DNA of 61,168 bases from a virus. Its lineage: Duplodnaviria > Caudoviricetes. The DNA lies in IMG/VR virus record IMGVR_UViG_3300031658_000006, positions 1 through 61,168 of that record, one strand, 5' to 3'. This document shows positions 1-33,300 of the stretch, in pieces. The position numbers and the translations under genes were made by a program. Position 1 is the stretch's first letter. Every line of letters begins with the position of its first letter. The notes under the pieces are model-generated. The model searched no databases and was not told the origin of the DNA. It saw only the letters and a list, made by a program, of their open reading frames with translations.

Positions 1-657
1 GTCAACAAGACTAACAATCTTATTGGTTCCCATATCAAGGTTAGCCGTGGCAGCTCCAAACGAAGTTACAGGAATATTTGCTGAGTCAATTTTATGCTGA
101 TTGGTTCCCGACGTAACAGCAAAATAATCTGCATCATTAATGTTACCACTTAGGGGTAGCTCGCTAATATCTAAAGTAAATGTAGCTGTTCCAGGAGCAG
201 AGATTACCGTGTCAATACCCACACCACCCACTAACGATAATGTATCGTCGTCGTAAATAGTTTGATTGGCTCCTGTATCTCCACTTATATCAAAGGAAGT
301 CATAATTCCAGGAGCTACACCCGATACAACACCCGTAATATGACCCTGTGTATTAACAGAAATAGATACAGGATAGGCATACGTGCCTGGTGTTCCGTAA
401 TTTAAATGGTCAAAGGTGACCGTTCCAATATTAGAAGCCACGCTATCAATAGCTACTCCACCTAAAAGAAATAACGAATCATTATTGTTTATAGTCTGGG
501 CAACACCAGTGTTCCCGTATACACTAAAAGAAGCGAGCCCTACAATGTCGCCAATACTATAGTTCATAGTGGCTAAGGCATTGCCAGAATCACTGCCAAT
601 AACCTTGTCTAACGCGGTCGGTGTACCATCTATTAAGTACGAGCTAATCTTAGGCAT
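1..657 (-). CDS. Tail fibre-like protein, 5' part only (duplicate of the start of 55298..57901)
   Basis: ATG at 657 (MPKISSY...) equals 57901 minus 57244; runs off the window start. Confidence 0.85.
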   Translation of the reverse strand, partial: MPKISSYLIDGTPTALDKVIGSDSGNALATMNYSIGDIVGLASFSVYGNTGVAQTINNNDSLFLLGGVAIDSVASNIGTVTFDHLNYGTPGTYAYPVSISVNTQGHITGVVSGVAPGIMTSFDISGDTGANQTIYDDDTLSLVGGVGIDTVISAPGTATFTLDISELPLSGNINDADYFAVTSGTNQHKIDSANIPVTSFGAATANLDMGTNKIVSLVD

Positions 658-8318: not shown

Positions 8319-8575
8319 ATGATAAAAATTGGTGTCGTCGGTCCCATACTAGCGGCCAACACATTATACTCAAAGTACTCAATCGCCTCCTCCTCGGTCA
8401 TACCGTCAGCTATTAACGCGTCATAGCAGCGCGTCACGCTATAGCATACACGGAACGAACCCGTATAGCCGTCCTGCGACACCCCGATTATAGCATCGTC
8501 AAAACCGTCAGCGAATAAAGACGACATATCACATGACTGTAACAACTCGTCAATTTCATTACGTGTATCCATCAT
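8315..8575 (-). CDS. Conserved acidic phage protein
   Basis: ADGFDDAIIG...GMTEEEAIEYFEYNV...G..TPIFI; lies between groEL and groES. Confidence 0.75.
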   Translation of the reverse strand: MMDTRNEIDELLQSCDMSSLFADGFDDAIIGVSQDGYTGSFRVCYSVTRCYDALIADGMTEEEAIEYFEYNVLAASMGPTTPIFII

Positions 8576-10197
8576 GACGCCTCGTATGAACGAGCCATCG
8601 TCACAATAGCATTGGTACTTAATATAGTCGCCGCTACAGAGACAGCATTTTGAAGCGCCACCTTAGTTACTTTCATAGGGTCTATAATCCCCATCTCTAT
8701 CATGTCACCGTACAGACGCTTCTTTACGTCGAACCCGTACCCCTCGCGCGTCACTAAAGGCATACCCTTCTCATAGATATCCTCGAAATTCACACCCGCG
8801 TTAGTAAGGATTTGTTTTAAAGGGGAGGCCAACGACTGCGAAAGTATAGCCGCCGCCGCACGCTCACTGTCAGAAGGGTACTCATCGTTAGATACCCTCA
8901 TGTCAAGTAAGTTGTGCTCGTTATATAGAGCTACACCGCCGCCAGGTAGGATACCCTCCTGTAACGCAGAACGTACCGCACAGACAGCGTCGTCAACACG
9001 GTCGAACAGCTCCTTCTGCTCCAGGTCAGTATTCCCGCCCACTTTAATCGTACCGATACCACCCGTTAGGCTGGCGATACGCGATAAGAGAAAGTCTTTG
9101 TCGCCCTTACGTGTCGCTAACTTATGTGCGTCACGTAGCTCGTCAACCCTAGCCGCTACCTGCTGCGCATTGTCAGCTTTACCCTTTACAATTACAGTCT
9201 GGTCGCGGCTCACCACCACACGCTGGGCGTGACCTAGGTCCTCAAACTGGATGATACTTAAGTCGTCACCCGTCTTCTCACTGAAATAGGTGGCCCCTAC
9301 AGATACCGATATGTCCTGCATCAGCTCATGGGTACGGTAACCAAAACTAGGAGGAGGGACAGCGCATAACTTCAAAGCGTTACGCATCACATTAGCCGAT
9401 AACGTGTTGACTACGTTAGTAGAGCACGGAGCAATTATAAGAAGTCGCTTGCCGTCAGCGATAATAGGCTTGAGGATATTCTCAATAGTGAGAAGATTTA
9501 TAATCTCAGCGTCAGATACCAAGACATAGCAGTCGTCTAAAATACACTCGTCACGCTTCTGGTTGTTTACAAATAAAGGGGACATATAACCGCGCTCTAC
9601 CTTTACCCCACGAGTGGTCTCGTACGTAGTCTCTACAGTGTCGCTGTTCTCAACCGTAACCACGCCGTTCTTACCCAAGTCCTTATACACGTCAGCAATT
9701 ATCTTGCCTATAAAACGGTCGTTATTAGAAGATACCGACGCTACCTCGATAAAGTTCTTCTTCGTAAGGGGACGTGAACGTTTCTTTAAAGACGAAACCA
9801 CGTCGTCAGTTAAACTTACTAGATGACGAAGTACCTCAGTCTTATTCAACTCAGGATATAAACTGAACATATCGTAAGCCGAACGTATCAAAGCCTCCGT
9901 TAATACAATAGATGTAGTAGTCCCGTCGCCAGCCTCTGTAGCCGTACGGTCAGCCGCCTCACGCATCATACGTACAGCTAAATTCTCTACAGGGTCCAGT
10001 AAGTCAATAGCCTTAGCTACCGTGACGCCGTCCTTAGTTACCGTAATGCCGTGGGTGTGGTTCGGTGATTCAATTAATACAGTATGACCGCTAGGCCCTA
10101 ACGTACTCTTTACCGCGTTAGACATCTTAGTGATGCCCTCAATTAATTTGGAACGACCCTCGTCGTCAAACTTTAAGTCCTTAGGTGTATAGTCCAT
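8572..10197 (-). CDS. groEL: Chaperonin GroEL
   Basis: TLGPSG, TKDGVTVAK, AGDGTTT, DRVDDAVCA, GILPGGG, GIIDP.KV..ALQNA.S. Confidence 0.97.
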   Translation of the reverse strand: MDYTPKDLKFDDEGRSKLIEGITKMSNAVKSTLGPSGHTVLIESPNHTHGITVTKDGVTVAKAIDLLDPVENLAVRMMREAADRTATEAGDGTTTSIVLTEALIRSAYDMFSLYPELNKTEVLRHLVSLTDDVVSSLKKRSRPLTKKNFIEVASVSSNNDRFIGKIIADVYKDLGKNGVVTVENSDTVETTYETTRGVKVERGYMSPLFVNNQKRDECILDDCYVLVSDAEIINLLTIENILKPIIADGKRLLIIAPCSTNVVNTLSANVMRNALKLCAVPPPSFGYRTHELMQDISVSVGATYFSEKTGDDLSIIQFEDLGHAQRVVVSRDQTVIVKGKADNAQQVAARVDELRDAHKLATRKGDKDFLLSRIASLTGGIGTIKVGGNTDLEQKELFDRVDDAVCAVRSALQEGILPGGGVALYNEHNLLDMRVSNDEYPSDSERAAAAILSQSLASPLKQILTNAGVNFEDIYEKGMPLVTREGYGFDVKKRLYGDMIEMGIIDPMKVTKVALQNAVSVAATILSTNAIVTMARSYEAS

Positions 10198-10799: not shown

Positions 10800-11140
10800 T
10801 GCACAGAGTGTTTGGGTAATATAGCGTTATACGCGCGACACCCTCGATTCCAAACCGACTTTTTTTAGGCACCCCCCCTCCTGAATCCACCGTCATCGCT
10901 CCACTTTTTTGCCGTTTTTCTACAGCCCCCGCCCCCGTAGGGCTGCAGGGCCGCTGCCCCGCGCTCCGCCCGTCCTCCGCTTTCGGATGCTCAAGGGGGG
11001 ACCACCGTCCCCCTTACCCCCTCGCTAGAACTCCTACCCAGAAATAAAGGCAGAGGCACCCCCCTCTACAGGCCGCGTCTACCTAGGGCTGTAGGAGGGG
11101 CATAAGATTTCCACGATTTCTGTAGGATGCAAAAGAAAGT
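10800..11140. other. GC-rich non-coding divergence region, candidate physical genome end / packaging region
   Basis: No long ORF; strand switch from late to early genes; repeated AGGCACCCCCC(C)TC (10867, 11054) and TAGGGCTG motifs. Confidence 0.4.
10995..11013. repeat. GGGGGGAC-N4-GTCCCCC palindrome (loop CACC)
   Basis: Direct sequence. Confidence 0.85.
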
Positions 11141-11146
11141 ATACAC

Positions 11147-11154
11147 TATCTTTG
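11147..11154 (+). promoter_or_regulatory. TAnnTTTG -7 element, first early promoter
   Basis: TATCTTTG ~45 nt upstream of ATG 11199. Confidence 0.65.
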
Positions 11155-11198
11155 TCGAAACAAAACACAAACGACCAACAGGTCAAACATTAACTGCC

Positions 11199-11894
11199 AT
11201 GCAGAAATTATCTAAGAAGGTCACTACCGCCGCAAGTGTAGAGAAGGTCACATTGACAAGCATCCTAAACGAAGTAAAATTCGCAGACGGTTCCGGTGTA
11301 TCAGACGTGAGAACGACCTTGACGAAGGTCAAGCAATCCAAGGCTGAGGCGTTCAGTGCTGAGCTTGCAAACGCACGAGTCCTACTAAGCTTCCGAGAGC
11401 ATTACAACTGCCCGCTTGGAGAACTGAAGGAAGCGTTAGAGAATTCGTTTGGAGAGGTTATCAGCCTGAGTGAGTGCTACAAGAACCTTGGCTTTGGTGC
11501 TAAGGGATGCACAGCGAAGGAGGCTGCAAACCACGCAGGAAAGGTCATTGGAGTTGCGAGTGCTGAGCGTGAATACGCTGACAAGAACAACATGACGTTG
11601 TTGGCTGTCGAGAAGAAGTTCAACAAAGCAAATCCTGACGTGTTTGGAACACGTCGCTACAAGGATTGGTGTCTCGGTAAGGCAGCGAAGAAAGACGGTA
11701 GCAAGGCTGTTGCATTCGAGACCCTGACCTGTGAGGAGAGTGGAATGAAATGGGTTGAGAAGATGCTGAAGCGGGCGCAGGACCCAAGCAACGATTTGAC
11801 GCTGACTGAGCTGAACCGAGTGCTTGCGCATATGGCTAGAACGGCTGCTTTGGCTGAGACGGAGCAGGCTGTTGCTGAGGCTTTGCAAGCCTAA
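11199..11894 (+). CDS. First early gene, hypothetical helical protein
   Basis: Long ORF; start reassigned to ATG 11199 because the promoter lies inside the longer ORF call. Confidence 0.75.
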   Translation: MQKLSKKVTTAASVEKVTLTSILNEVKFADGSGVSDVRTTLTKVKQSKAEAFSAELANARVLLSFREHYNCPLGELKEALENSFGEVISLSECYKNLGFGAKGCTAKEAANHAGKVIGVASAEREYADKNNMTLLAVEKKFNKANPDVFGTRRYKDWCLGKAAKKDGSKAVAFETLTCEESGMKWVEKMLKRAQDPSNDLTLTELNRVLAHMARTAALAETEQAVAEALQA

Positions 11895-11901
11895 CGGCAA
11901 C

Positions 11902-11922
11902 GGGGGGGACAGCGGTCCCCCC
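11902..11922. repeat. Palindrome copy (loop AGCG) abutting hammerhead 1
   Basis: GGGGGGGAC AGCG GTCCCCCC. Confidence 0.9.
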
Positions 11923-11976
11923 TCCGTCCACAGCTGTGTAGCTGTGCTGATGATGACTCAAAAGAGTCGAAACGGA
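11923..11976 (+). ncRNA. Type III hammerhead ribozyme 1 (predicted cleavage after C11928)
   Basis: Stem III TCCGT/ACGGA, GTC triplet, stem I CACAGC-TGTGTA-GCTGTG, CTGATGA core plus one extra T, stem II GACTC-AAAA-GAGTC, GAAA. Confidence 0.9.
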
Positions 11977-11998
11977 AATCTAACTTAATACTTTAGCT

Positions 11999-12373
11999 AT
12001 GGACAGCAACAAGAAAAGTCTAACTGAACTCTTAGCCACATGGGACAAGCTCCATGTGGTAGGCATAACTCCTGGAGAGGTCAACTCCATCATGACCGAG
12101 ACGGTGATGGGTGACTCCATCGTCAAGGTTGCCATTGAGTTCCAACATCGGAACTCTCCCGTCTCAGGGACGCACTCCATCCATGCCCGTCTCATAACGT
12201 ACGACTTCTATGGCAACAGGGTGACCGTGAGATTCAATGGCTCATGGGGATGCCATGACGAGGAGATACCACAGTTCATCAAGTGGTTCCATCTCAAGAA
12301 GTATGAAGCAAGGGATAAGGACGAAGCGCGAGCGAACGCAACATCGGGATTGGTAGGCAACTTCCTCGCATAG
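11999..12373 (+). CDS. Hypothetical early protein flanked by two hammerhead ribozymes
   Basis: 124 aa ORF with an AT-rich leader. Confidence 0.8.
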   Translation: MDSNKKSLTELLATWDKLHVVGITPGEVNSIMTETVMGDSIVKVAIEFQHRNSPVSGTHSIHARLITYDFYGNRVTVRFNGSWGCHDEEIPQFIKWFHLKKYEARDKDEARANATSGLVGNFLA

Positions 12374-12377
12374 CATA

Positions 12378-12397
12378 GGGGGGGACAGCGGTCCCCC
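12378..12397. repeat. Palindrome copy (loop AGCG) abutting hammerhead 2
   Basis: GGGGGGGAC AGCG GTCCCCC. Confidence 0.9.
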
Positions 12398-12450
12398 TTC
12401 TGTCTCAGGCTGTGTAGCCTGACTGATGAGTCCAAAAGGACGAAACAGAA
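12398..12450 (+). ncRNA. Type III hammerhead ribozyme 2 (predicted cleavage after C12404)
   Basis: Stem III TTCTGT/ACAGAA, GTC triplet, stem I TCAGGC-TGTGTA-GCCTGA, CTGATGA, stem II GTCC-AAAA-GGAC, GAAA; fully canonical core. Confidence 0.95.
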
Positions 12451-12488
12451 TTCAAATCAAATGGGTGATGGCCTACATCAAAAGCACT

Positions 12489-12782
12489 ATGAGAGTTTCA
12501 AAAGGAATGGACGTTTTAAACGAGTTGATGGGCATGAAATCAGCGGACGAAATAATCCTCAATGACAGCGATATCATTGCGGTTGGATGGAACTACAATG
12601 CTTCGATTCACATCCACCTGAACAACACAACGGAGCGATGGTTCCGCATCATTCAGGACGAGTTGGAGGGTATATCTGAGATGCGTCGCAGACATCCCGT
12701 CAACCCTGAAAGCTTGAGTCTGACTCAGAACTTCGACTTCGTCTACAAAGGTTTTGACATCAACCTGACCTTCAGCGCATAA
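12489..12782 (+). CDS. Hypothetical early protein
   Basis: ORF-track start 12426 lies inside the ribozyme core; ATG 12489 (or 12468) is more plausible. Confidence 0.7.
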   Translation: MRVSKGMDVLNELMGMKSADEIILNDSDIIAVGWNYNASIHIHLNNTTERWFRIIQDELEGISEMRRRHPVNPESLSLTQNFDFVYKGFDINLTFSA

Positions 12783-12789
12783 TCCTCAT

Positions 12790-12809
12790 GGGGGGACAGC
12801 CGTCCCCCC
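12790..12809. repeat. Palindrome copy (loop AGCC), possible weak terminator
   Basis: Followed by TTTT on +. Confidence 0.85.
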
Positions 12810-12825
12810 TTTTAACTCCCCTATC

Positions 12826-12909
12826 ATGAAGTATTTATTTCAGTTTTTTACAACCATCGGTATGGTGGTGACCTTCCTACTCTTCATTGCAATTGCTTGC
12901 GCACTATGA
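12826..12909 (+). CDS. Small membrane peptide (27 aa)
   Basis: MKYLFQFFTTIGMVVTFLLFIAIACAL; ATGA-coupled to the next ORF. Confidence 0.5.
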   Translation: MKYLFQFFTTIGMVVTFLLFIAIACAL

Positions 12910-13052
12910 ACTGCACAATATCATTTTACACTGGCACCCGCTCATGGTGGGTGACCAAGGACTTCAAAGACCGAAGTCACGTTGACAATTTCATTGCCTA
13001 TATCGAACGAACGAAAGGCTACAACCTAGACGAACTATTCATAAACGAATAG
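12906..13052 (+). CDS. Small hypothetical protein (48 aa)
   Basis: MNCTISFYTGTRSWWVTKDFKDRSHVDNFIAYIERTKGYNLDELFINE. Confidence 0.6.
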   Translation: MNCTISFYTGTRSWWVTKDFKDRSHVDNFIAYIERTKGYNLDELFINE

Positions 13053-13056
13053 TGTA

Positions 13057-13124
13057 TTGTTAACAACTTGTTAATAACTTATTGATACATACCATTGTTA
13101 TATACAATGTTTGTCGTATCTTTG
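13057..13124 (+). promoter_or_regulatory. Early promoter with three 11-bp tandem TTGTTAAYAAC-like boxes
   Basis: Boxes at 13058, 13069 and 13080 (degenerate); TATCTTTG at 13117-13124. Confidence 0.6.
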
Positions 13125-13149
13125 TAAAAAGAATCTAATACTAGTAAAC

Positions 13150-13190
13150 AAATCACGGGGGGGACAGACGTCCCCCACACAAATCAAATC
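13150..13190 (+). repeat. AAATCAC-palindrome-AYAYAAATCAAAT leader cassette, copy 1
   Basis: Near-identical to 13599-13638 and 16762-16801; each directly precedes an ATG. Confidence 0.85.
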
Positions 13191-13193
13191 AAG

Positions 13194-13595
13194 ATGAAAG
13201 TAACAATTGAAGTGCCTGAGTCGCATATGTTGAATATGCTTTGCAACGCGATGTACAGCAATGAGTACCTCGAAATCGTTGACGGTGAAGGAGGTAAGGT
13301 CACCGAGTGGGTAAAGAAAACACCCAATGCTATGGAGGGATATGACCACGCTGAGTGTTGGGAGCCACGATTGTTTGCGTACTTAAAGTCTAACAAAGAC
13401 CACGCGTTCAAGTTCTTGGATACTTACAGCGACGATGAGGTACAGCTAACGTGGGAGAATATGTGCAGCGGTATGATGAAGATGTCCACTAACCAAGTGC
13501 AGCATATGTCTGACCTTCTAACGGGGCGTGACGATTCCATCACGGCTGACGTATGGCTCCAGTGTTCATTGTTCGATGACGTTATATACTGCTAA
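13194..13595 (+). CDS. Hypothetical early protein
   Basis: C-terminal DDSITADVWLQ..LFDDVIY motif common in phage early proteins. Confidence 0.8.
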   Translation: MKVTIEVPESHMLNMLCNAMYSNEYLEIVDGEGGKVTEWVKKTPNAMEGYDHAECWEPRLFAYLKSNKDHAFKFLDTYSDDEVQLTWENMCSGMMKMSTNQVQHMSDLLTGRDDSITADVWLQCSLFDDVIYC

Positions 13596-13598
13596 TAG

Positions 13599-13638
13599 AA
13601 ATCACGGGGGGACAGCCGTCCCCCCATATAAATCAAAT
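13599..13638 (+). repeat. Leader cassette copy 2 (palindrome 13606-13625)
   Basis: Direct sequence. Confidence 0.85.
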
Positions 13639-13642
13639 AAAA

Positions 13643-13792
13643 ATGGATAGTAGAACCTTTACTGCCGTAGCTGATTGGGCAGAGCGCATCCAAACGATGA
13701 CGCAAGAAAACAGACTTATTAACTCACAAGATATCGTACACGATGTGTTCGGTATGCTACGAGACGACGAACACTTTTTACCGCGACTATGA
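13643..13792 (+). CDS. Small hypothetical protein (49 aa; HD..G...FLPR motif)
   Basis: MDSRTFTAVADWAERIQ...IVHDVFGMLRDDEHFLPRL. Confidence 0.6.
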   Translation: MDSRTFTAVADWAERIQTMTQENRLINSQDIVHDVFGMLRDDEHFLPRL

Positions 13793-16682: not shown

Positions 16683-16834
16683 AGCCTAAGGTCAGGTCAA
16701 CAGCCTATCCCCCTGACCCACCCAAAGACTACAACGACTGGGCTACAAGTTTATTCAAATCAAATCACGGGGGGACAGCCGTCCCCCCACATAAATCAAA
16801 TCATGTCGAAGACAAAACAACTGATGGTCGATGA
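16679..16834 (+). CDS. Small protein (VRST.YP.DPPKDYNDW motif) reading through a palindrome cassette
   Basis: GTGA overlap with the upstream stop; 51 aa. Confidence 0.45.
   Translation: MKPKVRSTAYPPDPPKDYNDWATSLFKSNHGGTAVPPHKSNHVEDKTTDGR
16762..16801 (+). repeat. Leader cassette copy 3 (palindrome 16769-16788)
   Basis: Direct sequence. Confidence 0.85.
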
Positions 16835-17826: not shown

Positions 17827-18554
17827 GCGATATCATAAACCAACTCAGGGATGACAACCACTACTATGGTGAGGTGGGTAAGCGTTACCTATCCAACTCG
17901 GACATAGGTAAGCTACTCACTAACCCTAAGATGTACGGGGTATCCGAACCTGACAACGTGAACTTCGCTAAGGGTAGGTACTTCCATCAGCTTATCTTAG
18001 AACCAGAGAAAGCATCGGTGGTACAAGCAGTGGACTCTTACTCACGCAACACCAAGATATATAAGGATGCAGTACTCGCAAGCGAAGAGACGTTCTTACT
18101 ACTCAATAAAGAACGCGATGAGATTGAATCGTTGGTCGCTACTATGATGGGCAACATAGATTTCTTTGATGCTATACGTGCCGAGGGTAACACATACGAA
18201 GAGCCATCGGTAGGTATGATAAAGGATAGGATGTGGAAGGGTAAGGCTGACATCATCACCAATGATATCATCATCGACCTTAAGACCACGAGCAGCATCA
18301 AGGACTTCAAGTACTCAGCTAAGAAGTATAACTACGACAGCCAGTGCTACATCTACCAGACCCTGTTCGGTAAGCCACTCGTGTTCTTTGTTATAGAGAA
18401 GTCATCAGGTATGATGGGTATGTATCAGCCGAGCGAGGAGTTCGTTCGTCAGGGTGAGTATAAAGTAGAGGATGCTATAGAGGTACACAATAAATTCTTT
18501 AGAGATGACGCGCCCCATGACATTGACAACTACTATATCAAAGAGACTCTCTAA
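17823..18554 (+). CDS. PD-(D/E)xK exonuclease (RecE/Exo VIII-like, DUF3799-type)
   Basis: LSNSDI, GRYFH.LILEP, WKGKADI..IIDLKTT, Y.YD.Q..IY. Confidence 0.85.
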   Translation: MSDIINQLRDDNHYYGEVGKRYLSNSDIGKLLTNPKMYGVSEPDNVNFAKGRYFHQLILEPEKASVVQAVDSYSRNTKIYKDAVLASEETFLLLNKERDEIESLVATMMGNIDFFDAIRAEGNTYEEPSVGMIKDRMWKGKADIITNDIIIDLKTTSSIKDFKYSAKKYNYDSQCYIYQTLFGKPLVFFVIEKSSGMMGMYQPSEEFVRQGEYKVEDAIEVHNKFFRDDAPHDIDNYYIKETL

Positions 18555-24293: not shown

Positions 24294-24329
24294 GAAGGGG
24301 GGGACCGTTGTCCCCCCCTCTTTTCTTTT
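24292..24329. terminator. Bidirectional terminator built on the palindrome family (loop CGTT)
   Basis: AAGAA-GGGGGGGAC CGTT GTCCCCCCC-TCTTTTCTTTT at the convergence of the two arms. Confidence 0.8.
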
Positions 24330-27300
24330 AGCTAGGGCGCTGGCTCTTTGGTATACCCATCACCTCATAAATCTCGTCACCGTCTATATTAGTTCCAGTT
24401 GCGAGCTCACCTAAGGCAACGACGGGCTCCATGTTAGCTCCCATCAATAAGCTAGCAAGGGGAATCAGCTTCTCATATGTATCCAGTTTAGAGTTTTCTA
24501 TATTTCTAATTGTATTTACTGTAGCGCTAGCTATAGGGTCAACAACGCCACCTCGCGAAGTACGAGGTACCTTGCCTGTCTCGATATATTCCAATGCTGT
24601 CTCAGCCGCAGTTCCTAAAATTGGAACGCTGTACAATATGTTAAGTCCTATCAAAGAGTCTCTAACTCTCTTCAACCACTCGTCTTTATCCGAGCTGTTA
24701 CCCGCTAGCTTAGCTGCATATGCCGTGCCATAGAAGACCGCGTTGACAAGACCTAGGTTTAAGTACAGCTTCCTGATGTCAGCTCGCTTAGGTGTCTCTC
24801 CTTTAGATACAGACCTACCTATGTTCTTGGTTGACTGCATCACGTTATTCATAAGTAAGAACGTAGCGCTACCGAACATCGTGAACATACGCATAAAGAC
24901 ATTGCGACTCTGTTGTAGTTGGTTACGCTCTGTTTCTCGCTGACTCTGCTGCGTAGCATTGTAGTCATCAAATTTAATAGCCGCCTTCTCTGGAGACATA
25001 CCATTCTTGATGTTCCTCTTGTACGTTACCATATATCCGAGTACACCAAGCAGGTCACCCAATGAAGTGAATCCACCAACCAAAGCCTTCAAGGTCCGTT
25101 TTGTTTTAGACATAAACGTGTACTTATTCTGGTCCATATAAGTAGGTGTCTGACCCCCAGCAAGGCTAGATATGTTACCTTCTTTATAGGTTCTCTTTAC
25201 ACGGTTTCTAAACTCAGGAGATATAGACCGAGCTAATGACACAGGACCGTTGCTCTTCTTTCCTTGCGCCATACGTACAAGGTCTATAGGTACAGCCGCG
25301 TACATGATAGCAGCGTCAAGTAAAAAGGCGGTGAGCTCCACAACCTCCTTACCTGGTTTCACCTCAAGGCTACCCACTTTAAAGCTAGGGTAATTAGGGA
25401 ACGCCTCGTATCCTTCAAAGGATGCCACGAAGGAAGAAGCCTGCTTCCACGTCTGAGCCATCTTAAGTCCGAGAATAGAGCCCACGAACTTCCGTTGGAA
25501 CCAAGCGATAGCCTTAGGTCCTACGACTTGGCCCTGTACAGACGCTGGATTGATAGCGTGGTTGATATGCTCGTTAACTAAATTTTTAATACCAAGAGAC
25601 GTCATCAATATGTCAACTGATTCGAACCCAAATATTGCATTCAGGTCGCGCGTGGTATAAGCAAACGCCTTGAACCGCTCCATAGAATCGAAGTGATTCT
25701 CTAGTAGGTCAGTGAAGTTAAAACTCTGAAGGGGTATCTCTCCCTTAACAGCCGTTCGTTCCTTCAGGGCTGTAGCGAACATAGCATTGAAGACCTTACT
25801 GAAATCTCCTGACTTTATAAGTTCAGCCATATTATCGCTTGATATCTTACGGGTAGGAAAATAGTTTTCTATCTGTGTTAGGTTAAGGTTACTGACGTCT
25901 TTGTAGACCTTATTAATTGACTCGAAGTAATCCTGAGACAGGTACGTCACCATCTTATCCGCGAAGTCTCTCAGCTGCGGCCCTAAGAACTCTTCAATCT
26001 TTTCAATAGGAACGCCCTGCTTCTCTAGCATCTCTCGCTGAACGTCGTTCTTTGAGAGCGAGTACAACCACATAAGCTGTGACTTATTGAACTGATACTT
26101 CTTCCCTTGGATAGTGAACTCAGCTATATCTTCCTTGAGTGGGCTGTAGATGACACGCTCCATCTCTTTGTATCCCTTCGTAATTCCGTTAACTGAGTTG
26201 GCTATCTCATCCATCTTAGCTCGCTGGTCATCCAGCCCCTGTAAGTAATTGCGACGTGATACATTGAGCCTATCGTATACATTCTCCTTAAACCAAGGGG
26301 CCATCTGATTCATCAACGTGCCGAGGTGCTTAACGATATCAAAGTTTGACCTTGCAGATTTCATAAGCTCCGAGTATTGCATCGTGCTCACGTACTGCTT
26401 AACGGCTTCGAACTTCTCCTTGAAGTTTCCTTCCTTATACTGCTTGAGGATGTTGGTACGCTGACGCATAACCTCCTCCTTAGAAAGCGGGTTGCCTTCC
26501 TTATCAAAGAGTATAGGGGCTATACTCTTCACCACGCTATCTGCCTCAACCTTTAAGTCTTCAACCTCCCCTGACCTATTGAGACGCCTTTCACTTAGCA
26601 TAGCCCGTGAAGCGGTGGCCTCTGACTTTATGATAGCTACTGAAGCGCGTACCTCTTCGAGTGTCATGTCGGCTATACTTCCCCACGCATCAAGAGCAAT
26701 AGACTGGTCAAGGGCTTTCTCTTCGGGCAGCGTTAATTCCTGCTTTTCGTTTGCCTCATTCCTATTGTTCTTTACTTTAACCATAGCGCTCTGAAGCACA
26801 TCGCTTTCATTGAGCTTCTGCTGCAAGCTAGTGATTGCGCTCATGCGCATCTGCTTGTTAGGTGAGGCGGCAATAGTAAGTACCCTAGTAAGCGTCTCAA
26901 AGTACAGCTGACCTACCGCATCAAGACCACGCGTGCGCGTCCTTCCGCTGGATGTCTTCGCTTTCTTCGCTTGCTTTTTAGTGTATTTTATCAGGTCATT
27001 TATCACCATCTTCTTCTCAGCCTCTCGCTGCTCGTCAATAGTATTCAATACCTTCTGTGCCTGCGAATAGAAGTTCTTCTCCGTGGTATTGGCTACGATA
27101 GCCAGTAGTCTATTGACCATGCTTCGGTTGATGAGGCCCGTCTGCTTCATCTCCTGCCTGATAAGACGACGCAGCCTAGTCTTGTACTCCTTCAGGTTCT
27201 TGATAGCTGCCTTGCCTTGACGTATGTCATTACGCAGCTGCTTCATCTCACGCGATACATCCTTGTTCGTGGCTACGGATAGCGAGTCGTTCATAGCTAC

Positions 27301-30300
27301 CAACAACTCACGCTGTGTGCTAGGTGACTGCTCGTTGAACGCTTCGTTCTCACGCAGTATCTCCATCGCTTTCTGACGAATCTCCTTGGCTGTCTTCTTC
27401 GTCTTGTTCTCCTCCGTCACCTCAGCGAACTCATTGAGCTGCTGTACTACGCTCTGATAGATAGCCTTACCTGTATCCATACCGCCCTTGACATTACCAA
27501 AGACAGCGGGAACTATGATACTTGGCTGGGTGTACTCTGTTATGCCATCCTTAATAACCTTAGCGTCGTACCCTTGTCGCTTCAGTAGCTCACGGATGGA
27601 TGCGTCTGAGTAGCCTTTAGAGCGCCCGTATTGAATGATATCACTCATCGGTATAGACGCGTCATTAGGTATCATCCTAAGGGACTCAGCTAGCTCCTTC
27701 GACTCCGTGTCTACTCCCTTACTAAAGGAAGCTTCTGGATTCCTAAGTTGATTCAGCTGCTTCTCCGTTAGCTTGATAGCTTTACCACCCATTATGTCAG
27801 CAAGCGCAGTACCTAGGAATGTGTCAAGTGTAAGGTTCTGAATCTCAGTAGAGGATAAATCCTTAGACATCTTGAACGTATCCTTAATGTATGTCCACGC
27901 AGCATTAAGCCACGCTTGGAACTTCTGTTTAAGGGATGCGTTAATGATAGTCTCTCCCTTATTTCCTATAAGGATAGCCATCGTTTCATTTATAGCATTA
28001 GTCCTGGCTTCACTATTGTTTAATCCTTCAGCCTTAAATTTCTCAAACTGACTCTTGTACTCCTCTGTTTGAATAACAAGAGAGGCGCCTTTCTTATAAA
28101 CCTTTTTACCCTTAGGTGTGAGCTGTAAGTAATCGGTCCATACGTGACCGAACTCGTGAACAGCCGTATTGTAAAGAGCCGACTCACTATTATGTACCTC
28201 AGGATTGATGTATATATCTCCTCCTTTAGTTAATCCGTATACCACTTCTCCACCCTTCAGGTACTCTCGAACCCCGTCAGACTTTAATACATTAGAGAAT
28301 GTCTCAGTGTCTGTAGATAAATTTACGCTAGGAAAAGAACGATTTAAAAAATCAAGTACACCTGCTCGTTGGTCAGGCGTTGCGATAACCCCTACGAACT
28401 CTGCGTTAGGTAGACCAGCCTGTACTGGAACCACTTGAGTTAATCTAGAACGTTCACTTCTTTGAGCCCTACCCTTTGTTTCTTGAGCGATACCGATAGA
28501 TACATTATTAGCTACCGTAGGAAACAATTCTACTACAGACTGCGGTTGTTCTAAAACTCCTATTGTTTTACCTCTTGGGCCAACAGGATAGTTAGGGTGG
28601 TTTGTATTTAAAACACCAGGGTTAAGCACGTCAATCCCCTGAACAACAAATACAGAACGCTGAGGAACGCCTTCTAGTTGAGGCTCGGTAATCAAATCTG
28701 TTACCACGCCAGCGTTTAGTAGGCTTACTTGTTCCTTCGTAGGGCTATCACCGAGCAATACTTTAGGTACAGCCTTAGCTTGAGACGGGGTATAGGAGGG
28801 CCTTCTTTTTTTAGCGCCAACCTCATTAGGTTGACCCGTCATAATTAAACCTGTTATAACATTTACTGAGGTAATACCTTTTAAATTAGATAGAGATTCA
28901 GGAGTTAGTAGCTGCTCGATGGTTGTAGGTTTTACTACATCAATCATAGCAAGAACGTCATTAGCATCATTGATATAAGACTTGTACTGCTTGGCGGTTT
29001 CCAAAGCAATACCAGAGTCAATAGCATCCTGCTTAATTTTAATAGATTGTTTGACCGCCTGCTTGAGTTGAGACACCGCTTTCTTACGGCGAGATATAGG
29101 TAGCGACGATATGTTATCGCCAAGAACTCTCACTACTGCTTCGTTACTAAGTATAGAAGCTTGCCCCATCTTAACGATGAACATAGGAACTAATCCATTA
29201 TACTTAGGGTTAGCCTTCCACCAACGAGTAAAGAACTCTTTGTTTTCGTTATATACTTTTGTCGCGCTATCAATCTGACCTTGAGCTTTGTCCTTAGTGA
29301 CGCTAGCCCACGCCATATTTTGGTGACCCTCTACTCCTGTAAACCCAAGACCTCCCTTTAGGTTAGTAATAGTATTTCCTGTTGCGGGGTTTACTACATC
29401 GCCAGTTCTAAGCTGGTCAGAAATATTAAATATACCAGGGACGTCTTGCACCTCACTCACATCTATGGTTGGTAGTGGGTTGTCAAGTCGAGAATTCAAC
29501 TCATCTATATCCACCTTAGTGGCTTTAGCTTCGGTGTCCCTCGGCCTTCCTCTTTGTCTAAGCTCCTCAGCTCTTTGATTAAGAGTATTTCGTTTAGCAA
29601 CAGTAAGGGTTTTACCCTTGTCGTCTTTGTTTAATTCTATTGTCGCTTCTATATCTGCTATCTCCTGAGATTGTTGTGACTCAATTTGAGCCCCCGTCTC
29701 ATTCATAGCGTCAAGTATAGCTAGGGTCTCTGCGTCTTTCTCATCTAAAGAAATTCCCAGTGAATTCTCTTTCAACCTAAACCTAGCTGGGTTGTTCTGC
29801 GCGTCTTTCTTAAACTTATCTAGTGACTTAGTTAGCTCAGAAACCTTACCCTCCTTCTTCGCTTCAGACAACTTCGTGTCCTTCCTCACCTTAGCTATCT
29901 CCTCCTTTACCTTCTTCGTCTCCTTATCTATCGCTGCCTTTATCCTCTCGTCAGCCTGAGCTTTCGCTACCGCAGCTGGTGACACACCTATTTCCTTTCT
30001 ATTACCTAACGCCTTCTGACTTTCCCTTTCCGCAGCTTCTCTCTTCTCCTTTTTTAATCTAATAACTTTAGCTTTAGATGCTGCGCTTACCCGTCCGTAG
30101 TAAGACTCGTCGCTCTCTCCTTTCTTTCTATTGACCTCGCCCTCTACCTTTACAGCCGCAGCCTTCTTCTTAACCTTAGATTCTGCCGTCGGCTTCGACA
30201 CAGTTTCTTCTACCGCGACTTCTTCTACTACAGGGGCGGCCTTCTTCTTAGGAGCGGCCTTCACAGGGGCGGCCTCTTCTACTACTGCTTCAGGCGCAGC

Positions 30301-33300
30301 CTTCTTCTTAGGCGCAGCCTTCTTCTTAGGCGCAGCCTTCTTCTTAGGCGCAGCCTCTTCTACCGCGACTTCTTCTACTACAGGGGCAGCCTCCTCAACA
30401 GGCGCAGCCTCCTCAACTACGTCAACGTCAGGGGCTAAACCAATACCTAACTCAGACTCAAGGTCAGAGACCTCACCCTCTAGGGTTTCGACTTCTTCTG
30501 GGGTAGGTTCTTGTTGTCGGGATACTTCTTCTTCCACCTCTTGTATATCTGAGGGTGATTGATTTTCAGAAATGTCTCCTGGGCTTTGCTCTTGAACGGC
30601 ATCTGGCTCTAGGGTTTGTTTAATTAACTCAACTACCTCAACGTCGTTACGCACAGCATAGCCCTGCTTCTCTAGCTTAGCTTTCTGCGGTGGTGTCATG
30701 TCCGTGATGTGCTCTATGAATTGAGCACGGGTCATGAATTTCTTTCCGACCTTGTACAAAGGGACATCAGGCTTACGAAGCAACTCAGGAATCAAGGCGT
30801 CAATTTTAACACCGTCCTTAGGTATCTTCTTCGTTAATCCTATCTGACCAATCTCTTTATTTATCTCAGATATCTCACTAGAGAAGGCTTCTTTATTCGC
30901 CTCAGACAACTGCTTCTTAGCTTCATCTAAAGCCATCAGACGTGACACCACCTCAGGAGAGGACGTGCGAGAACGCTTGGGCCCCACACCCAATGTCTTC
31001 AACGCATTACGGCGAGCACCCACGTTCTCTAGGATACGTTGCTCTGTCTCTGCATCTATCTTACCGAGCTTACTCATATTGGTAGCCCAGTCGTTGATAC
31101 GCTGGTCAGATGCCTTCTCTGAGGCGATATAATTTATGTCCGTCAACTGATGCGCTACCGATAGGTCTGAACTGTTACGTGTATCTACGTACATATTTAT
31201 GGCAGCGTTAGGCATTGACATACCCAAGTGACCAAAAACTTCATCGACTACCTCCTTCCAATTTACCTCCTGACCTGAGAGAACCTGAGCTGACAACTCA
31301 CCCGTTCCTTCTATTAAAGGACCTACTGTAACTGATTCTACTAACATAGCAGCTGAAGTCGCTGCGGCAGAGGACAGCCGTGGAACAAGTTTCGTTAGGA
31401 CCCTGCCCGCTGCTACTCCACCGAGTATATTAAATCCACCGATAACTGCCCCACGTATCTTACCGACACGCCTTCCTTCCTCCATCACCTGCTCATTATT
31501 AAGAGCCTCCATTACCTGAGAGGGGTCGGATATGTTGTAACCAGACTCACGCATAGAGTCTAGAATAGCATTGGTGTACTCAAGGGCAGCTCCTGCCAAT
31601 CCTTGTCCAGCAATAAGACCTCTACCAGCACCTGTAGTAGCACCAAGTAATGCACCTGGAACAGCGCCCACGCCACCAGCAACTGAGCCAGAAGCGGCGC
31701 CAATACCAGCACCTGTAGCAGCACCTGTAGCTATAGCAGCAGGAACAATCTTCATCCCCAGTGGCATTAGCATAGTAAGTGACGACGCCACGAGACCAGA
31801 TATATATTCTACTGGGTCATCAGTAAAAGCAGAACCCCACTCCTTAGCTCCAACAGCGTTATGCAGACGAGACATGACACGCGTTTGACCTGGCTTCATC
31901 TGAGACATACGCTCAGAGATAATAGCTGCCGCCTCCTCCTGATTCTCTGGCATCATACCTGACATCTCGTATGCCATTATAGCTTCGGCTGCCCACCCCG
32001 TGTTCCATGCGTTAGACACGCCCTCGGTAAAACCCTGCCAGTTCTCAGTGAACTCAGCGTATACATTCTTGTCGTGCTTAGCGTCTAAGTAAGTCTTCGC
32101 TTGGTCATACTTTAGAGCAGATAACTGCTGTATATCTTTAACAGTATTAAATTCAGCGATTAGATTATTAGCATACTCACGCTCCTGCTCATTCTTAGGC
32201 TCGTATTTTACTAGCTCCTCCACGGGTATACCGAACGAAGCCATAGAATTCTTCTGAATAGCTGCCTCTTTAGCGAGTGATGATTGATTAATACTAGCCG
32301 CCTGACCAGCTATTTTATTCTGACGCTGGTTGAGGTATACATCGAAGTCCTCACGTGCTGTCATAGCCTCGTCATCCATAACCGCATCGAAGAGGGTGTC
32401 CTCTCGCTGCTCGATAGAATCCACATAGCTCTCTACGTCTTTACGTAGTACGCCGTTAGTGTAGTGCTGGCTATACAAAGCCTTCTCTTCTTCATCAAGA
32501 GATTCTAACTCAACGTTGTCACTGTCCTCTAAGAAGATACGCTCGTCACGTAAAGCCTCGTACTCCTGTAGTGCTGCTTGGTCAGAGCCATAATCTCTAT
32601 TCTTTTCACGAAAGAAATGCTGAGCTTCAATCTCTACAGGGGCCACGTCCTTCCAGCTGCCCTCAGCAAAAGCATTAGCCTCCTCCTCAGTGTCAAAACT
32701 AAATACCTCACCACGCGATTCAGCTGTTTGGATAGCTTCGTCCGTACCCAACCTCATCCACGTTCTACCGTCTGAGTTGTAGTTGTCAGGGTTGATAGGG
32801 AATAGAGTAGGCGCCACCTTGTACTGCCCGTCTTGCTCGTACGACATAAACTCCACCGTGGATTCGGTGCCGTCGTTATTACGCATAGCTTCCCCCCTCA
32901 TATTCTGAGCACGGTAAGCTTTGTCCAGTACGTTGTCGGTCTCTAACTCTACAGGTGCGGTAGCGTTAGCATTCATAAACTGACGTAGACGCTGCGATTC
33001 TACCTCAGCCCCTGCATCAGTAAAAGTGTCAAGGTCCACATCGATAGAGGCGCTACCGTCGGTAGTGGTGACGGACATTGCATCGCCGATACCTGATTCG
33101 TTGAAAGTAAATCCATACTTACCAAACTCTTTACGCATATCAGGAACCACCTGCTCCTCCTCCTGAGCTATAAGGCCAGGGGTTACTACGTCGATAGACT
33201 CAGATAGGCTAGGCGCCTGGTCAACGAGTTGAACGGACGGCTCCAAAGAACCATCGTCCAATGACGAATCCATAGGCTCGTCTTTTTTTTTTAAGCCCAT

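What the first reader, a model, noticed from the sequence alone, without database searches (positions are those of the whole stretch)
11895..12460. Two hammerhead ribozymes punctuate the first early operon: a self-processing phage mRNA
Seen: both intergenic gaps after early genes 1 and 2 have the same layout: stop codon, G/C hairpin, type III hammerhead on the sense strand, next gene. The copies keep GTC, CTGATGA, GAAA and both loops (TGTGTA, AAAA), while all three stems differ with pairing preserved (CACAGC/GCTGTG vs TCAGGC/GCCTGA; GACTC/GAGTC vs GTCC/GGAC; TCCG/CGGA vs TTCTG/CAGAA). That is strong evidence of selection on the fold. Known: hammerheads leave 2',3'-cyclic phosphate and 5'-OH ends; 5'-OH RNA is a poor substrate for 5'-monophosphate-dependent decay; hammerheads have been reported in phage sequences but their role is largely unknown. 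Inference: protein-free conversion of the first transcript into monocistronic mRNAs with a 3' hairpin and a 5'-OH stem-loop, analogous to T7 RNase III processing.
Basis: partly seen in the sequence, partly recalled or inferred. Interest (0 to 1): 0.92.

Follow-up and report, generated by a model that had tools for sequence, protein, structure and literature searches.

The report
Hammerhead ribozymes between early phage genes
Two small self-cutting RNA motifs (hammerhead ribozymes) sit between the first genes of a marine phage's early gene cluster; the motifs are real, but this arrangement and the idea that it chops the transcript into single-gene messages were already published in 2011.

Summary
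Two type III hammerhead ribozymes lie on the + strand at 11921-11978 and 12397-12451. Predicted cuts are at 11928/11929 and 12404/12405. Each abuts a G/C hairpin that follows a stop codon and precedes the next gene.

- **Rfam:** Hammerhead_3 scores 31.1 and 47.2 bits. Both are below the 48.5-bit gathering score.
- **Core and stems:** every core nucleotide is present. All three stems differ between the copies with pairing kept.
- **Wider subclass:** a scan of viral contigs found over 100 relatives with the same loops. Of 115 matches, 110 have a perfect 6-bp stem I, with heavy covariation.
- **Related phages:** related GroEL-encoding phage contigs carry 1-4 such ribozymes at the first early-gene junctions. 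All 37 examined are sense and intergenic, and 33 of 37 abut a strong hairpin.
- **Cultured relative:** Flavobacterium phage elemoF has one, 13 nt before its first early gene.

Self-processing of the early transcript is the best reading, but it is untested here. It is not new: Perreault et al. 2011 described clustered hammerheads flanking prophage genes and drew the same inference.

New member of a known kind. The recurring hairpin-plus-hammerhead cassette is a modest addition.

The parts
11127..11894 (+). g1, a 255-aa ORFan. It is the first + strand gene after the divergent region.
   Evidence: ORF list. No PHROG or Pfam family. Of 25 listed strain differences inside it, 20 fall on codon position 3, so it is under selection as a coding sequence.
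11902..11922 (+). G/C hairpin 1: an 8-9 bp stem with a 4-nt loop, 8 nt after the g1 stop, directly abutting stem III of hammerhead 1.
   Evidence: Fold energy -19.1 kcal/mol. Not flagged as terminator-like because it has no T tract.
11921..11978 (+). Hammerhead ribozyme 1 (type III). Predicted cut after C11928. It has an extra U between A9 and stem II.
   Evidence: Rfam RF00008 31.1 bits. Own model R1 66.6 bits, although this copy was in the training set. The minimum-energy fold is a three-way junction.
11999..12373 (+). g2, a 124-aa ORFan bracketed by the two ribozymes.
   Evidence: No family or relatives found. An RNA-library contig covers 12173-12349.
12378..12397 (+). G/C hairpin 2, 5 nt after the g2 stop, abutting hammerhead 2.
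   Evidence: Fold energy -16.4 kcal/mol. Not flagged as terminator-like.
12397..12451 (+). Hammerhead ribozyme 2 (type III, canonical core). Predicted cut after C12404.
   Evidence: Rfam RF00008 47.2 bits, E 3e-7 over the window. R1 74.7 bits. Fold.
12468..12782 (+). g3, about 104 aa. Likely start is ATG 12468; the longer ORF from 12426 begins inside the ribozyme.
   Evidence: The start context resembles that of ORFs following hammerheads in L064, L093 and L039.
12790..12809 (+). Next copy of the same hairpin, after the g3 stop. It has a T tract and no ribozyme.
   Evidence: Flagged as terminator-like.

Best explanation
Both elements are genuine, functional type III hammerhead ribozymes, transcribed as part of the phage's first rightward (early) transcript.

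As RNA polymerase passes each gene end it first makes the G/C hairpin and then the ribozyme. The ribozyme folds and cuts itself 6-7 nt downstream of the hairpin.
- The upstream mRNA then ends in hairpin + UCCGUC (or UUCUGUC) with a 2',3'-cyclic phosphate.
- The downstream mRNA starts with a 5'-OH directly at the stem I hairpin. The rest of the ribozyme follows, then a short A/U-rich leader and the start codon.

The result is separate g1, g2 and g3 messages. Their ends are set by RNA alone, and their stability and translation are uncoupled.

What is shown:
- the motif and its complete core;
- covariation in the stems;
- sense intergenic placement;
- the conserved position in relatives.

What is inferred:
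- transcription across the junctions;
- cleavage in vivo;
- the effect on mRNA fate.
For: 1. **Motif.** Rfam Hammerhead_3 hits of 47.2 and 31.1 bits. All core positions are present, with a GUC triplet and an A15.1-U16.1 pair. The minimum-energy folds give the junction.

2. **Selection on the fold.** The pattern GTC-N6-TGTGTA-N6-CTGATGA hit 105 viral contigs. Of 115 matches, the window's own two included, 110 have 6/6 paired stem I against a chance rate of about 0.3%. On 62 distinct sequences, 94% of cells pair against 64% in shuffles. There are 248 double-change cells against 71, with 0/500 shuffles reaching that. Stem III was not used to select the sequences, and 4 of its 6 pairs show double changes.

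3. **Family trait.**
 - A model built from these sequences found 39 strong hits in 20 related loci, 19 of them beyond the pattern matches. It found only the two in the window, where the next best score is 12.3 bits.
 - In three whole related records, hammerheads occur only as clusters of 4, 4 and 2.
 - All 37 examined lie between same-strand ORFs. The upstream gap is 18-55 nt and the next start is usually 8-52 nt downstream.
 - Triplets are GUC 32, GUA 3 and GUU 2. 33 of 37 have a hairpin of -8 kcal/mol or stronger ending within 5 nt of G16.2.

4. **Conserved position.** In L064, L039, L041, L013, L035 and L066 the order is ORF-A, hammerhead, ORF-B. The A proteins are only 27-57% identical. 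In the window, L064, L039, L013 and L035, the first ribozyme follows the first ORF after the divergent p64 gene.

5. **Precedent.** Perreault 2011 showed in vitro cleavage at all sites of three prophage hammerhead clusters. They also noted a halovirus early transcript whose mapped 5' end lies within 3 nt of a hammerhead cut site (passages).
Against: - No cleavage or transcript-end data exist for this phage.
- Neither copy reaches Rfam's gathering score.
- Copy 1 has an extra U after A9. Perreault 2011 reports low activity for a different core insertion, after A6, so an inserted nucleotide can slow catalysis. However, 22 of 62 relatives carry an extra U or A at the same place as copy 1 (my count).
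- With the upstream hairpin included, the minimum-energy folds pair part of the core differently and omit stem III (third and fourth folds).
- Ten other copies of the same hairpin mark gene ends or leaders without any ribozyme. The ribozyme is therefore not needed for ordinary punctuation.
- The closest GenBank relative, MW202828 (64% primase identity), has no hammerhead in its whole record.
- The cultured relative elemoF has its single hammerhead upstream of the first early gene, with no same-strand gene before it. This fits 5'-end trimming as well as cistron separation.
- The promoter that would drive a g1-g2-g3 transcript was not identified. The sigma-70 scan found 21 sites against 24 expected.
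Confidence: 0.6

Rival explanations
1. Leader trimming rather than cistron separation. Each gene or small gene block has its own transcript start near the hairpin. The hammerhead only removes a short 5' piece, giving the mRNA a 5'-OH and a structured 5' end.
For: - In Flavobacterium phage elemoF the single hammerhead lies in the divergent region, 13 nt before the first + strand early gene, with no same-strand gene upstream.
- The halovirus HF1/HF2 hammerhead sits 13 nt before an early gene.
- In the window the same hairpin sits 14-17 nt before start codons at 13157, 13606 and 16769 within conserved flanks. The hairpin could therefore be part of a start-of-transcript cassette.
Against: - Hairpins 11902 and 12378 lie 8 and 5 nt after stop codons. 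Copies at 24297 and 46730 sit after gene ends with T tracts, which is terminator-like behaviour.
- No promoter motif and no phage RNA polymerase were found. The 3048-aa ORF has no family or solved relative.
- There is no room for a promoter between the g1 stop and the ribozyme.
Confidence: 0.15
2. Conditional cleavage. The hairpin that stacks on stem III is bound by a phage or host protein, or competes with stem III. Cutting would then be switched on or off during infection, timing the expression of the first early genes.
For: - The hairpin sequence is identical within a genome but differs between related phages. This is what sequence-specific recognition would produce.
- Its 3' arm ends 0-4 nt from G16.2 in the 33 cases that have a hairpin.
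- Alternative folds that omit stem III are close in energy.
- Perreault 2011 raise regulated cleavage for phage hammerheads.
Against: - No binding protein has been identified.
- Identical repeats can also arise by gene conversion.
- 4 of 37 ribozymes lack the abutting hairpin.
- Only 32% of the wider subclass has an upstream hairpin of -10 kcal/mol or stronger.
Confidence: 0.1
3. Selfish or cassette-boundary element. Hairpin plus hammerhead marks recombination joints of shuffled accessory genes, and cleavage gives the phage little benefit.
For: - The window's g1-g3 are unrelated to the ORF-A and ORF-B families of relatives, yet the cassettes sit at the same junctions.
- L039 has an extra small ORF flanked by an extra ribozyme.
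- Related strains show 3-nt indels in stem II and a join between the two copies.
- MW202828 has no hammerhead at all.
Against: - All 37 cores are intact with permitted triplets.
- The stems covary.
- All 37 are on the sense strand. Recombination joints would not require that.
Confidence: 0.06
4. Circular or spliced RNA. The 476-nt piece between the two cuts (11929-12404, carrying g2) is joined end to end into a circular mRNA. The join would come from the reverse hammerhead reaction or from an RtcB-type ligase.
For: - The excised piece would carry exactly the 5'-OH and 2',3'-cyclic-phosphate ends that such ligation needs.
- In the window the 5' strand of ribozyme 2 pairs 6/6 with the 3' strand of ribozyme 1, while the opposite combination pairs only 2 contiguous positions.
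- Perreault 2011 name this possibility.
Against: - Across 18 adjacent ribozyme pairs the circle direction pairs better in 7, worse in 6 and equally in 5. Cross-compatibility therefore just reflects the shared stem III consensus.
- Perreault 2011 looked for circles and spliced products and detected none.
- The equilibrium of the hammerhead reaction favours cleavage over ligation (established chemistry).
Confidence: 0.04

Closest known systems
Clustered hammerhead ribozymes flanking genes in prophages (Perreault et al. 2011, PMC3088659; Agrobacterium tumefaciens ardA cluster, Clostridium scindens, Azorhizobium caulinodans)
   Same: Several hammerheads lie on the sense strand in the gaps around single genes of changing identity in phage DNA. 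The inference is the same: a long transcript cut into single-gene mRNAs. Cleavage was shown in vitro, and for A. tumefaciens also in E. coli (passages).
   Different: This is a lytic-type marine phage family, apparently infecting Flavobacteria, rather than a prophage. All its ribozymes are type III with one loop signature (UGUGUA / NAAA). They are restricted to the first early junctions, and each is fused to a phage-specific hairpin. I could not see that paper's figures or Dataset S1, so some of these sequences may already be listed there.
HHphage of haloviruses HF1/HF2 (Perreault et al. 2011)
   Same: A hammerhead sits 13 nt before the start codon of an early gene. The mapped 5' end of that transcript lies within 3 nt of the cut site. 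The spacing is the same as in elemoF (13 nt) and similar to the window (about 16-20 nt).
   Different: It is an archaeal virus with a variant core that needs high Mg2+. It is a single ribozyme at the head of an operon, not a series between genes.
RNase III processing sites of phage T7 early mRNA (recalled textbook knowledge)
   Same: The outcome is the same: a polycistronic early transcript is cut in intergenic hairpin regions into stable mRNAs that end in a 3' hairpin.
   Different: T7 uses a host protein enzyme and produces 5'-phosphate and 3'-OH ends. Here the RNA cuts itself and would produce 5'-OH and 2',3'-cyclic phosphate. This is a functional analogy only.
Type III hammerheads of viroids and plant satellite RNAs (Rfam RF00008)
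   Same: Same topology (stem III open), same core, and loop 1-loop 2 design.
   Different: Those process multimeric circular RNA replicons. Here the ribozymes are DNA-encoded inside phage mRNA. A 2026 paper states that DNA-encoded bacterial and phage hammerheads are usually type I (passage), so a type III-only phage family is a little unusual.

Membership tests
Hammerhead ribozyme, type III (Rfam RF00008) | Conserved core C3-U4-G5-A6-N7-G8-A9 and G12-A13-A14 | tested here: met
   Both copies have CUGAUGA and GAAA in register. Copy 1 has one extra U between A9 and stem II, as do 22 of 62 relatives (U or A; my count).
Hammerhead ribozyme, type III (Rfam RF00008) | Cleavage triplet N-U-H with an A15.1-U16.1 pair | tested here: met
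   GUC at 11926-11928 and 12402-12404. The U pairs with the last A of GAAA. Relatives have GUC 32, GUA 3 and GUU 2.
Hammerhead ribozyme, type III (Rfam RF00008) | Three helices around the core, stems I and II closed by loops and stem III open, supported by covariation | tested here: met
   Minimum-energy folds. Covariation: 94% of cells paired against 64% shuffled; sliding the 3' partners of the pairs by 1-3 columns gives 39-49%. Stem I was used to select the rows; stem III was not.
Hammerhead ribozyme, type III (Rfam RF00008) | Loop 1-loop 2 tertiary contact needed for activity at cellular Mg2+ | tested here: inconclusive
   Loop 2 is AAAA, GAAA, CAAA or UAAA in most of the 62 rows, although it was not selected for. 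Loop 1 UGUGUA was part of the search pattern. No structural test was possible.
Hammerhead ribozyme, type III (Rfam RF00008) | Score at or above Rfam's curated gathering threshold (48.5 bits) | tested here: not met
   47.2 and 31.1 bits. Nothing is listed at the gathering threshold. This is a scoring cut-off rather than a biological feature; E-values are 3e-7 and 1.8e-5.
Hammerhead ribozyme, type III (Rfam RF00008) | Mg2+-dependent self-cleavage giving 2',3'-cyclic phosphate and 5'-OH ends | not testable with these tools
   The only RNA data are contigs. None bridges 12404/12405, but depth is 1-3 and both runs come from one study.
Intrinsic (rho-independent) terminator, considered for the upstream hairpins | G/C-rich hairpin followed directly by a U tract | tested here: not met
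   Hairpins 11902 and 12378 are followed by UCCGUCC and UUCUGUCU and are not flagged. Copies at 12790, 24296 and 10422(-) are flagged.

The most novel reading that the evidence does not exclude
The g2 message is cut out by the two ribozymes as a 476-nt RNA (11929-12404) with 5'-OH and 2',3'-cyclic-phosphate ends. It is then closed into a circular, exonuclease-proof mRNA, by the reverse hammerhead reaction across a rebuilt hybrid stem III or by a host RtcB-type ligase. This would make hammerhead-bracketed early genes of these phages the first natural circular mRNAs of a DNA phage.
Probability: 0.04. Interest if true: 0.85.

Novelty: new member of a known kind. Interest (0 to 1): 0.4.

Why it matters
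The biological role of the thousands of hammerheads encoded in bacterial and phage DNA is still open. A 2019 review states that more work is needed to define their purpose (passages).

This window adds no new principle. It does contribute three things:
- It defines a coherent phage family in which hairpin-plus-hammerhead cassettes are fixed at the first early-gene junctions.
- It shows that the cassette survives replacement of the flanking genes.
- It points to a cultured relative, Flavobacterium phage elemoF on Flavobacterium sp. BAL314, that carries one such ribozyme.

That cultured phage gives a tractable system for asking what 5'-OH and cyclic-phosphate mRNA ends do for a phage.

Tried and rejected
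**Searches that led nowhere**
- DNA search of 10900-13200 against 50,697 phage records found no match.
- Relatives of g2 in viral contigs: none confirmed.
- PHROGs and Pfam for g1-g3: no family.
- ESM Atlas: g2 had no usable hit; g1 hit only unnamed clusters at 0.92.
- The 3048-aa ORF was tested as a possible virion RNA polymerase, which would have favoured a 'hairpin = promoter' idea recalled from phage N4. Results: no PHROG, one weak Pfam DUF below its cut-off, no PDB relative. The idea was left unsupported.
- The sigma-70 promoter scan was uninformative: 21 sites against 24 expected, and the host is probably Bacteroidota.
- The whole-window Rfam E-value scan found no other ribozyme class at the ten ribozyme-free hairpins.

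**Circle versus splice test**
There is no directional preference in stem III cross-pairing.

**Sequencing runs**
- RNA-library contigs of X19 and X20 (one study, depth 1-3) cover 12173-12349 and 12424-12635.
- None spans 12350-12423.
- Contigs cannot show ends or strand, and DNA may be present in the library. This gives no verdict on cleavage or transcription.
- DNA contigs of X2 and X3 show 3-nt indels at 11948 and 12423, and a join 11946>12423. These may mean the two stem II forms are exchanged between copies in related strains. I could not read the letters, so this stays an observation.

**Scripts that partly failed**
- The script returned no matches for the hairpin class I had read as GTGTC...GACAC. 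I judged my regular expression too strict and did not re-run it.
- The perfect-stem count found recurrent stems in the window and L039. For L013 and L061 it returned only an AT-only stem (ATATATA). For the other loci it found none.
- Only the counts for the window (12), L039 (9) and L064 (7) are used.

**Literature**
- Searches found no later paper that tests the function of phage hammerheads.
- One search found no paper in the listing linking Elemovirus with hammerheads.
- Supplements are closed. Dataset S1 and Figure 3 of Perreault 2011 may already contain members of this subclass.

**Recalled, not from any call**
- the extra nucleotide after A9 in a chrysanthemum viroid hammerhead;
- T7 RNase III processing;
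- N4 hairpin promoters;
- T4 PeSL cassettes;
- the twister 3'-UTR study cited in the 2019 review.

Full report
**What is in the sequence**

The window is a complete or nearly complete virus record of 61,168 bp. On the + strand, the gene order is as follows:
- g1 (11127-11894) ends.
- A G/C hairpin follows after 8 nt (11902-11922).
- A hammerhead follows directly (11921-11978).
- g2 starts 20 nt later (11999-12373).
- The same order repeats: hairpin 12378-12397, hammerhead 12397-12451, then g3.

The longest g3 ORF starts at an ATG inside the ribozyme (12426). The in-frame ATG at 12468 is the likely start.

**Is it a hammerhead, and more than chance?**

- Rfam's default scan lists nothing, because both copies fall below the 48.5-bit gathering score.
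- With E-value reporting, copy 2 scores 47.2 bits (E 3e-7 for the whole window). Copy 1 scores 31.1 bits (E 1.8e-5 in a 101-nt search).
- Copy 1 loses score mainly through one extra U between A9 and stem II.
- Each copy folded alone gives the three-way junction as its minimum-energy structure.
- With the upstream hairpin included, the minimum-energy folds pair part of the core differently. This is a caution, but energy models ignore the tertiary contacts that stabilise the active fold.

**Comparative evidence**

A scan of IMG/VR for GTC-N6-TGTGTA-N6-CTGATGA returned 105 contigs.
- Of 115 matches, the window's own two included, 110 have a perfectly paired 6-bp stem I. Chance would give about 0.3%.
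- 62 distinct full-length sequences were aligned.
- Stems I and III pair in 94% of cells, against 64% in shuffles and 39-49% when the 3' partner of each pair is slid by 1-3 columns.
- There are 248 cells with changes on both sides, against 71 in shuffles.
- Stem I was a selection criterion. Stem III was not, and 4 of its 6 pairs show double changes.
- 22 of the 62 carry an extra U or A at the position of copy 1's extra U (my count). That form is therefore a recurrent natural variant.

**A phage family with punctuated early genes**

tblastn with the window's proteins showed that a subset of these contigs shares several genes with the window:
- the GroEL-like chaperonin;
- a small divergent gene (p64);
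- g11-g13;
- the primase and the helicase.

I built a covariance model (R1) and searched 20 of the 105 loci. I chose those 20 because or their flanks tied them to this family.
- The search gave 39 strong hits, 19 of them not found by the pattern.
- In the window, with filters off, only the two known copies score. The next best is 12.3 bits.
- Whole related records carry 4, 4 and 2 hits, all clustered.

I examined 37 ribozymes: 2 in the window and 35 in 18 loci. L079 and L090 were dropped as duplicates of L013 and L035.
- All 37 lie between ORFs on their own strand.
- In 4 of the 37, a short sense ORF overlaps the ribozyme.
- 33 of 37 have a hairpin of -8 kcal/mol or stronger ending within 5 nt of G16.2.
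- All have a permitted triplet.

In six relatives the order is ORF-A, hammerhead, ORF-B, with the A proteins down to 27% identical. The window's g1-g3 belong to neither family, yet the cassettes occupy the same first two junctions. In the window, L064, L039, L013 and L035, the first ribozyme follows the first ORF after the divergent gene.

**The hairpin**

- It is a genome-wide repeat: 12 copies in the window against 0.06 expected. Only two copies carry a ribozyme.
- Some copies have T tracts and sit after gene ends, so they look like terminators: 12790, 24297, 46730 and 10404 on the - strand.
- Three copies sit 14-17 nt before start codons, within conserved flanks.
- Related phages use a different hairpin sequence, again repeated: 9 copies in L039 with 4 carrying ribozymes, and 7 in L064 with 2.
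- Across the wider subclass, 23 of 73 contexts have an upstream hairpin of -10 kcal/mol or stronger, against 2.5% of 1459 control windows.
- The hairpin-ribozyme fusion is therefore enriched but not universal.

**How it most likely works**

The ribozyme cuts 6-7 nt after the hairpin.
- The upstream mRNA keeps a 3' hairpin and gains a cyclic phosphate.
- The downstream mRNA begins with a 5'-OH at the stem I hairpin, followed by a short A/U-rich leader. That leader is typical of the starts in this genome, which lack a Shine-Dalgarno sequence.
- From established RNA-decay biology, such ends resist 3' exonucleases and 5'-monophosphate-stimulated decay.
- All of this is inference; nothing here measures it.

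**Results against this reading, or complicating it**

- MW202828, the closest GenBank relative, has no hammerhead.
- Flavobacterium phage elemoF has a single one: R1 36.1 bits and Rfam 36.3 bits. It lies 13 nt before its first early gene, with no same-strand gene upstream. That fits trimming of a leader as well as separation of cistrons.
- The RNA-library contigs give no verdict.

**Comparison with what is known**

- Perreault et al. 2011 (passages) reported clustered hammerheads flanking single genes in prophages. They inferred processing into single-gene mRNAs and showed cleavage in vitro for three clusters, and in E. coli for one.
- A 2019 review repeats the hypothesis and calls the function unresolved.
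- My later-literature searches found no functional test in phages.

**Verdict**

The finding is real, well supported and neatly conserved. The additions are:
- the hairpin-hammerhead cassette;
- its restriction to the first early junctions of a family apparently infecting Flavobacteria;
- a cultured relative in which the question can be tested.

Noticed in passing
window 10404, 10996, 11902, 12378, 12790, 13157, 13606, 15011, 16769, 18976, 24297, 46730: Twelve copies of one 8-bp-stem, 4-nt-loop G/C hairpin. Some have T tracts after gene ends, three sit in leaders 14-17 nt before an ATG, and one (15011) lies inside an ORF. Related phages each use their own repeated hairpin sequence, which suggests sequence-specific recognition or concerted evolution.
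   Followed up: partly
window 13150-13194, 13599-13643, 16762-16803: Near-identical leader cassettes (AAATCAC, hairpin, ACAYAAATCAAAT, ATG) sit in front of unrelated early genes. The motif AAATCAAAT also precedes the g3 start after hammerhead 2.
   Followed up: partly
L108 10137-10193 (NC_055853.1, about 17865-17921, minus strand): Cultured Flavobacterium phage vB_FspP_elemoF_6-3D carries an unannotated type III hammerhead (GUA triplet, CUGAAGA core). It lies 13 nt upstream of gp59, the first gene of its rightward early cluster.
   Followed up: yes
window 11946-11950 and 12423 (runs X2, X3): Related strains in DNA metagenomes show 3-nt indels in the stem II region of both ribozymes, and a contig joining 11946 to 12423. 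The two stem II forms may be exchanged between the copies by recombination.
   Followed up: partly
L042, L047, L071, L084, L091, L069, L095, L106: Other viral contigs carry the same hammerhead 5' half, followed by a much longer insert where stem II should be. The insert contains a hairpin and about 25 more nt before a GAGUC-like arm. These are possible extended or regulated stem II variants.
   Followed up: no
window 24328-33474 (-): A 3048-aa ORF with no PHROG, no significant Pfam family and no sequence relative in the PDB. It lies next to virion genes, so it may be an ejected internal protein.
   Followed up: partly
window 8572-10197 (-): A phage-encoded GroEL-like chaperonin, 58-66% identical in the related contigs and also present in Elemovirus. 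It is a useful marker for this phage family.
   Followed up: partly
window 1-30 and 57245-57274: The first 30 nt recur at 57245. The ungapped overlap of 3924 nt has 930 mismatches, so the record's ends overlap only in part. This could be a terminal repeat or two population variants assembled together.
   Followed up: partly
window 10890-11100: An unusually C/G-rich non-coding stretch with runs of C lies between the divergent p64 gene and g1. It contains one hairpin copy (10996). The early promoter was not identified.
   Followed up: no
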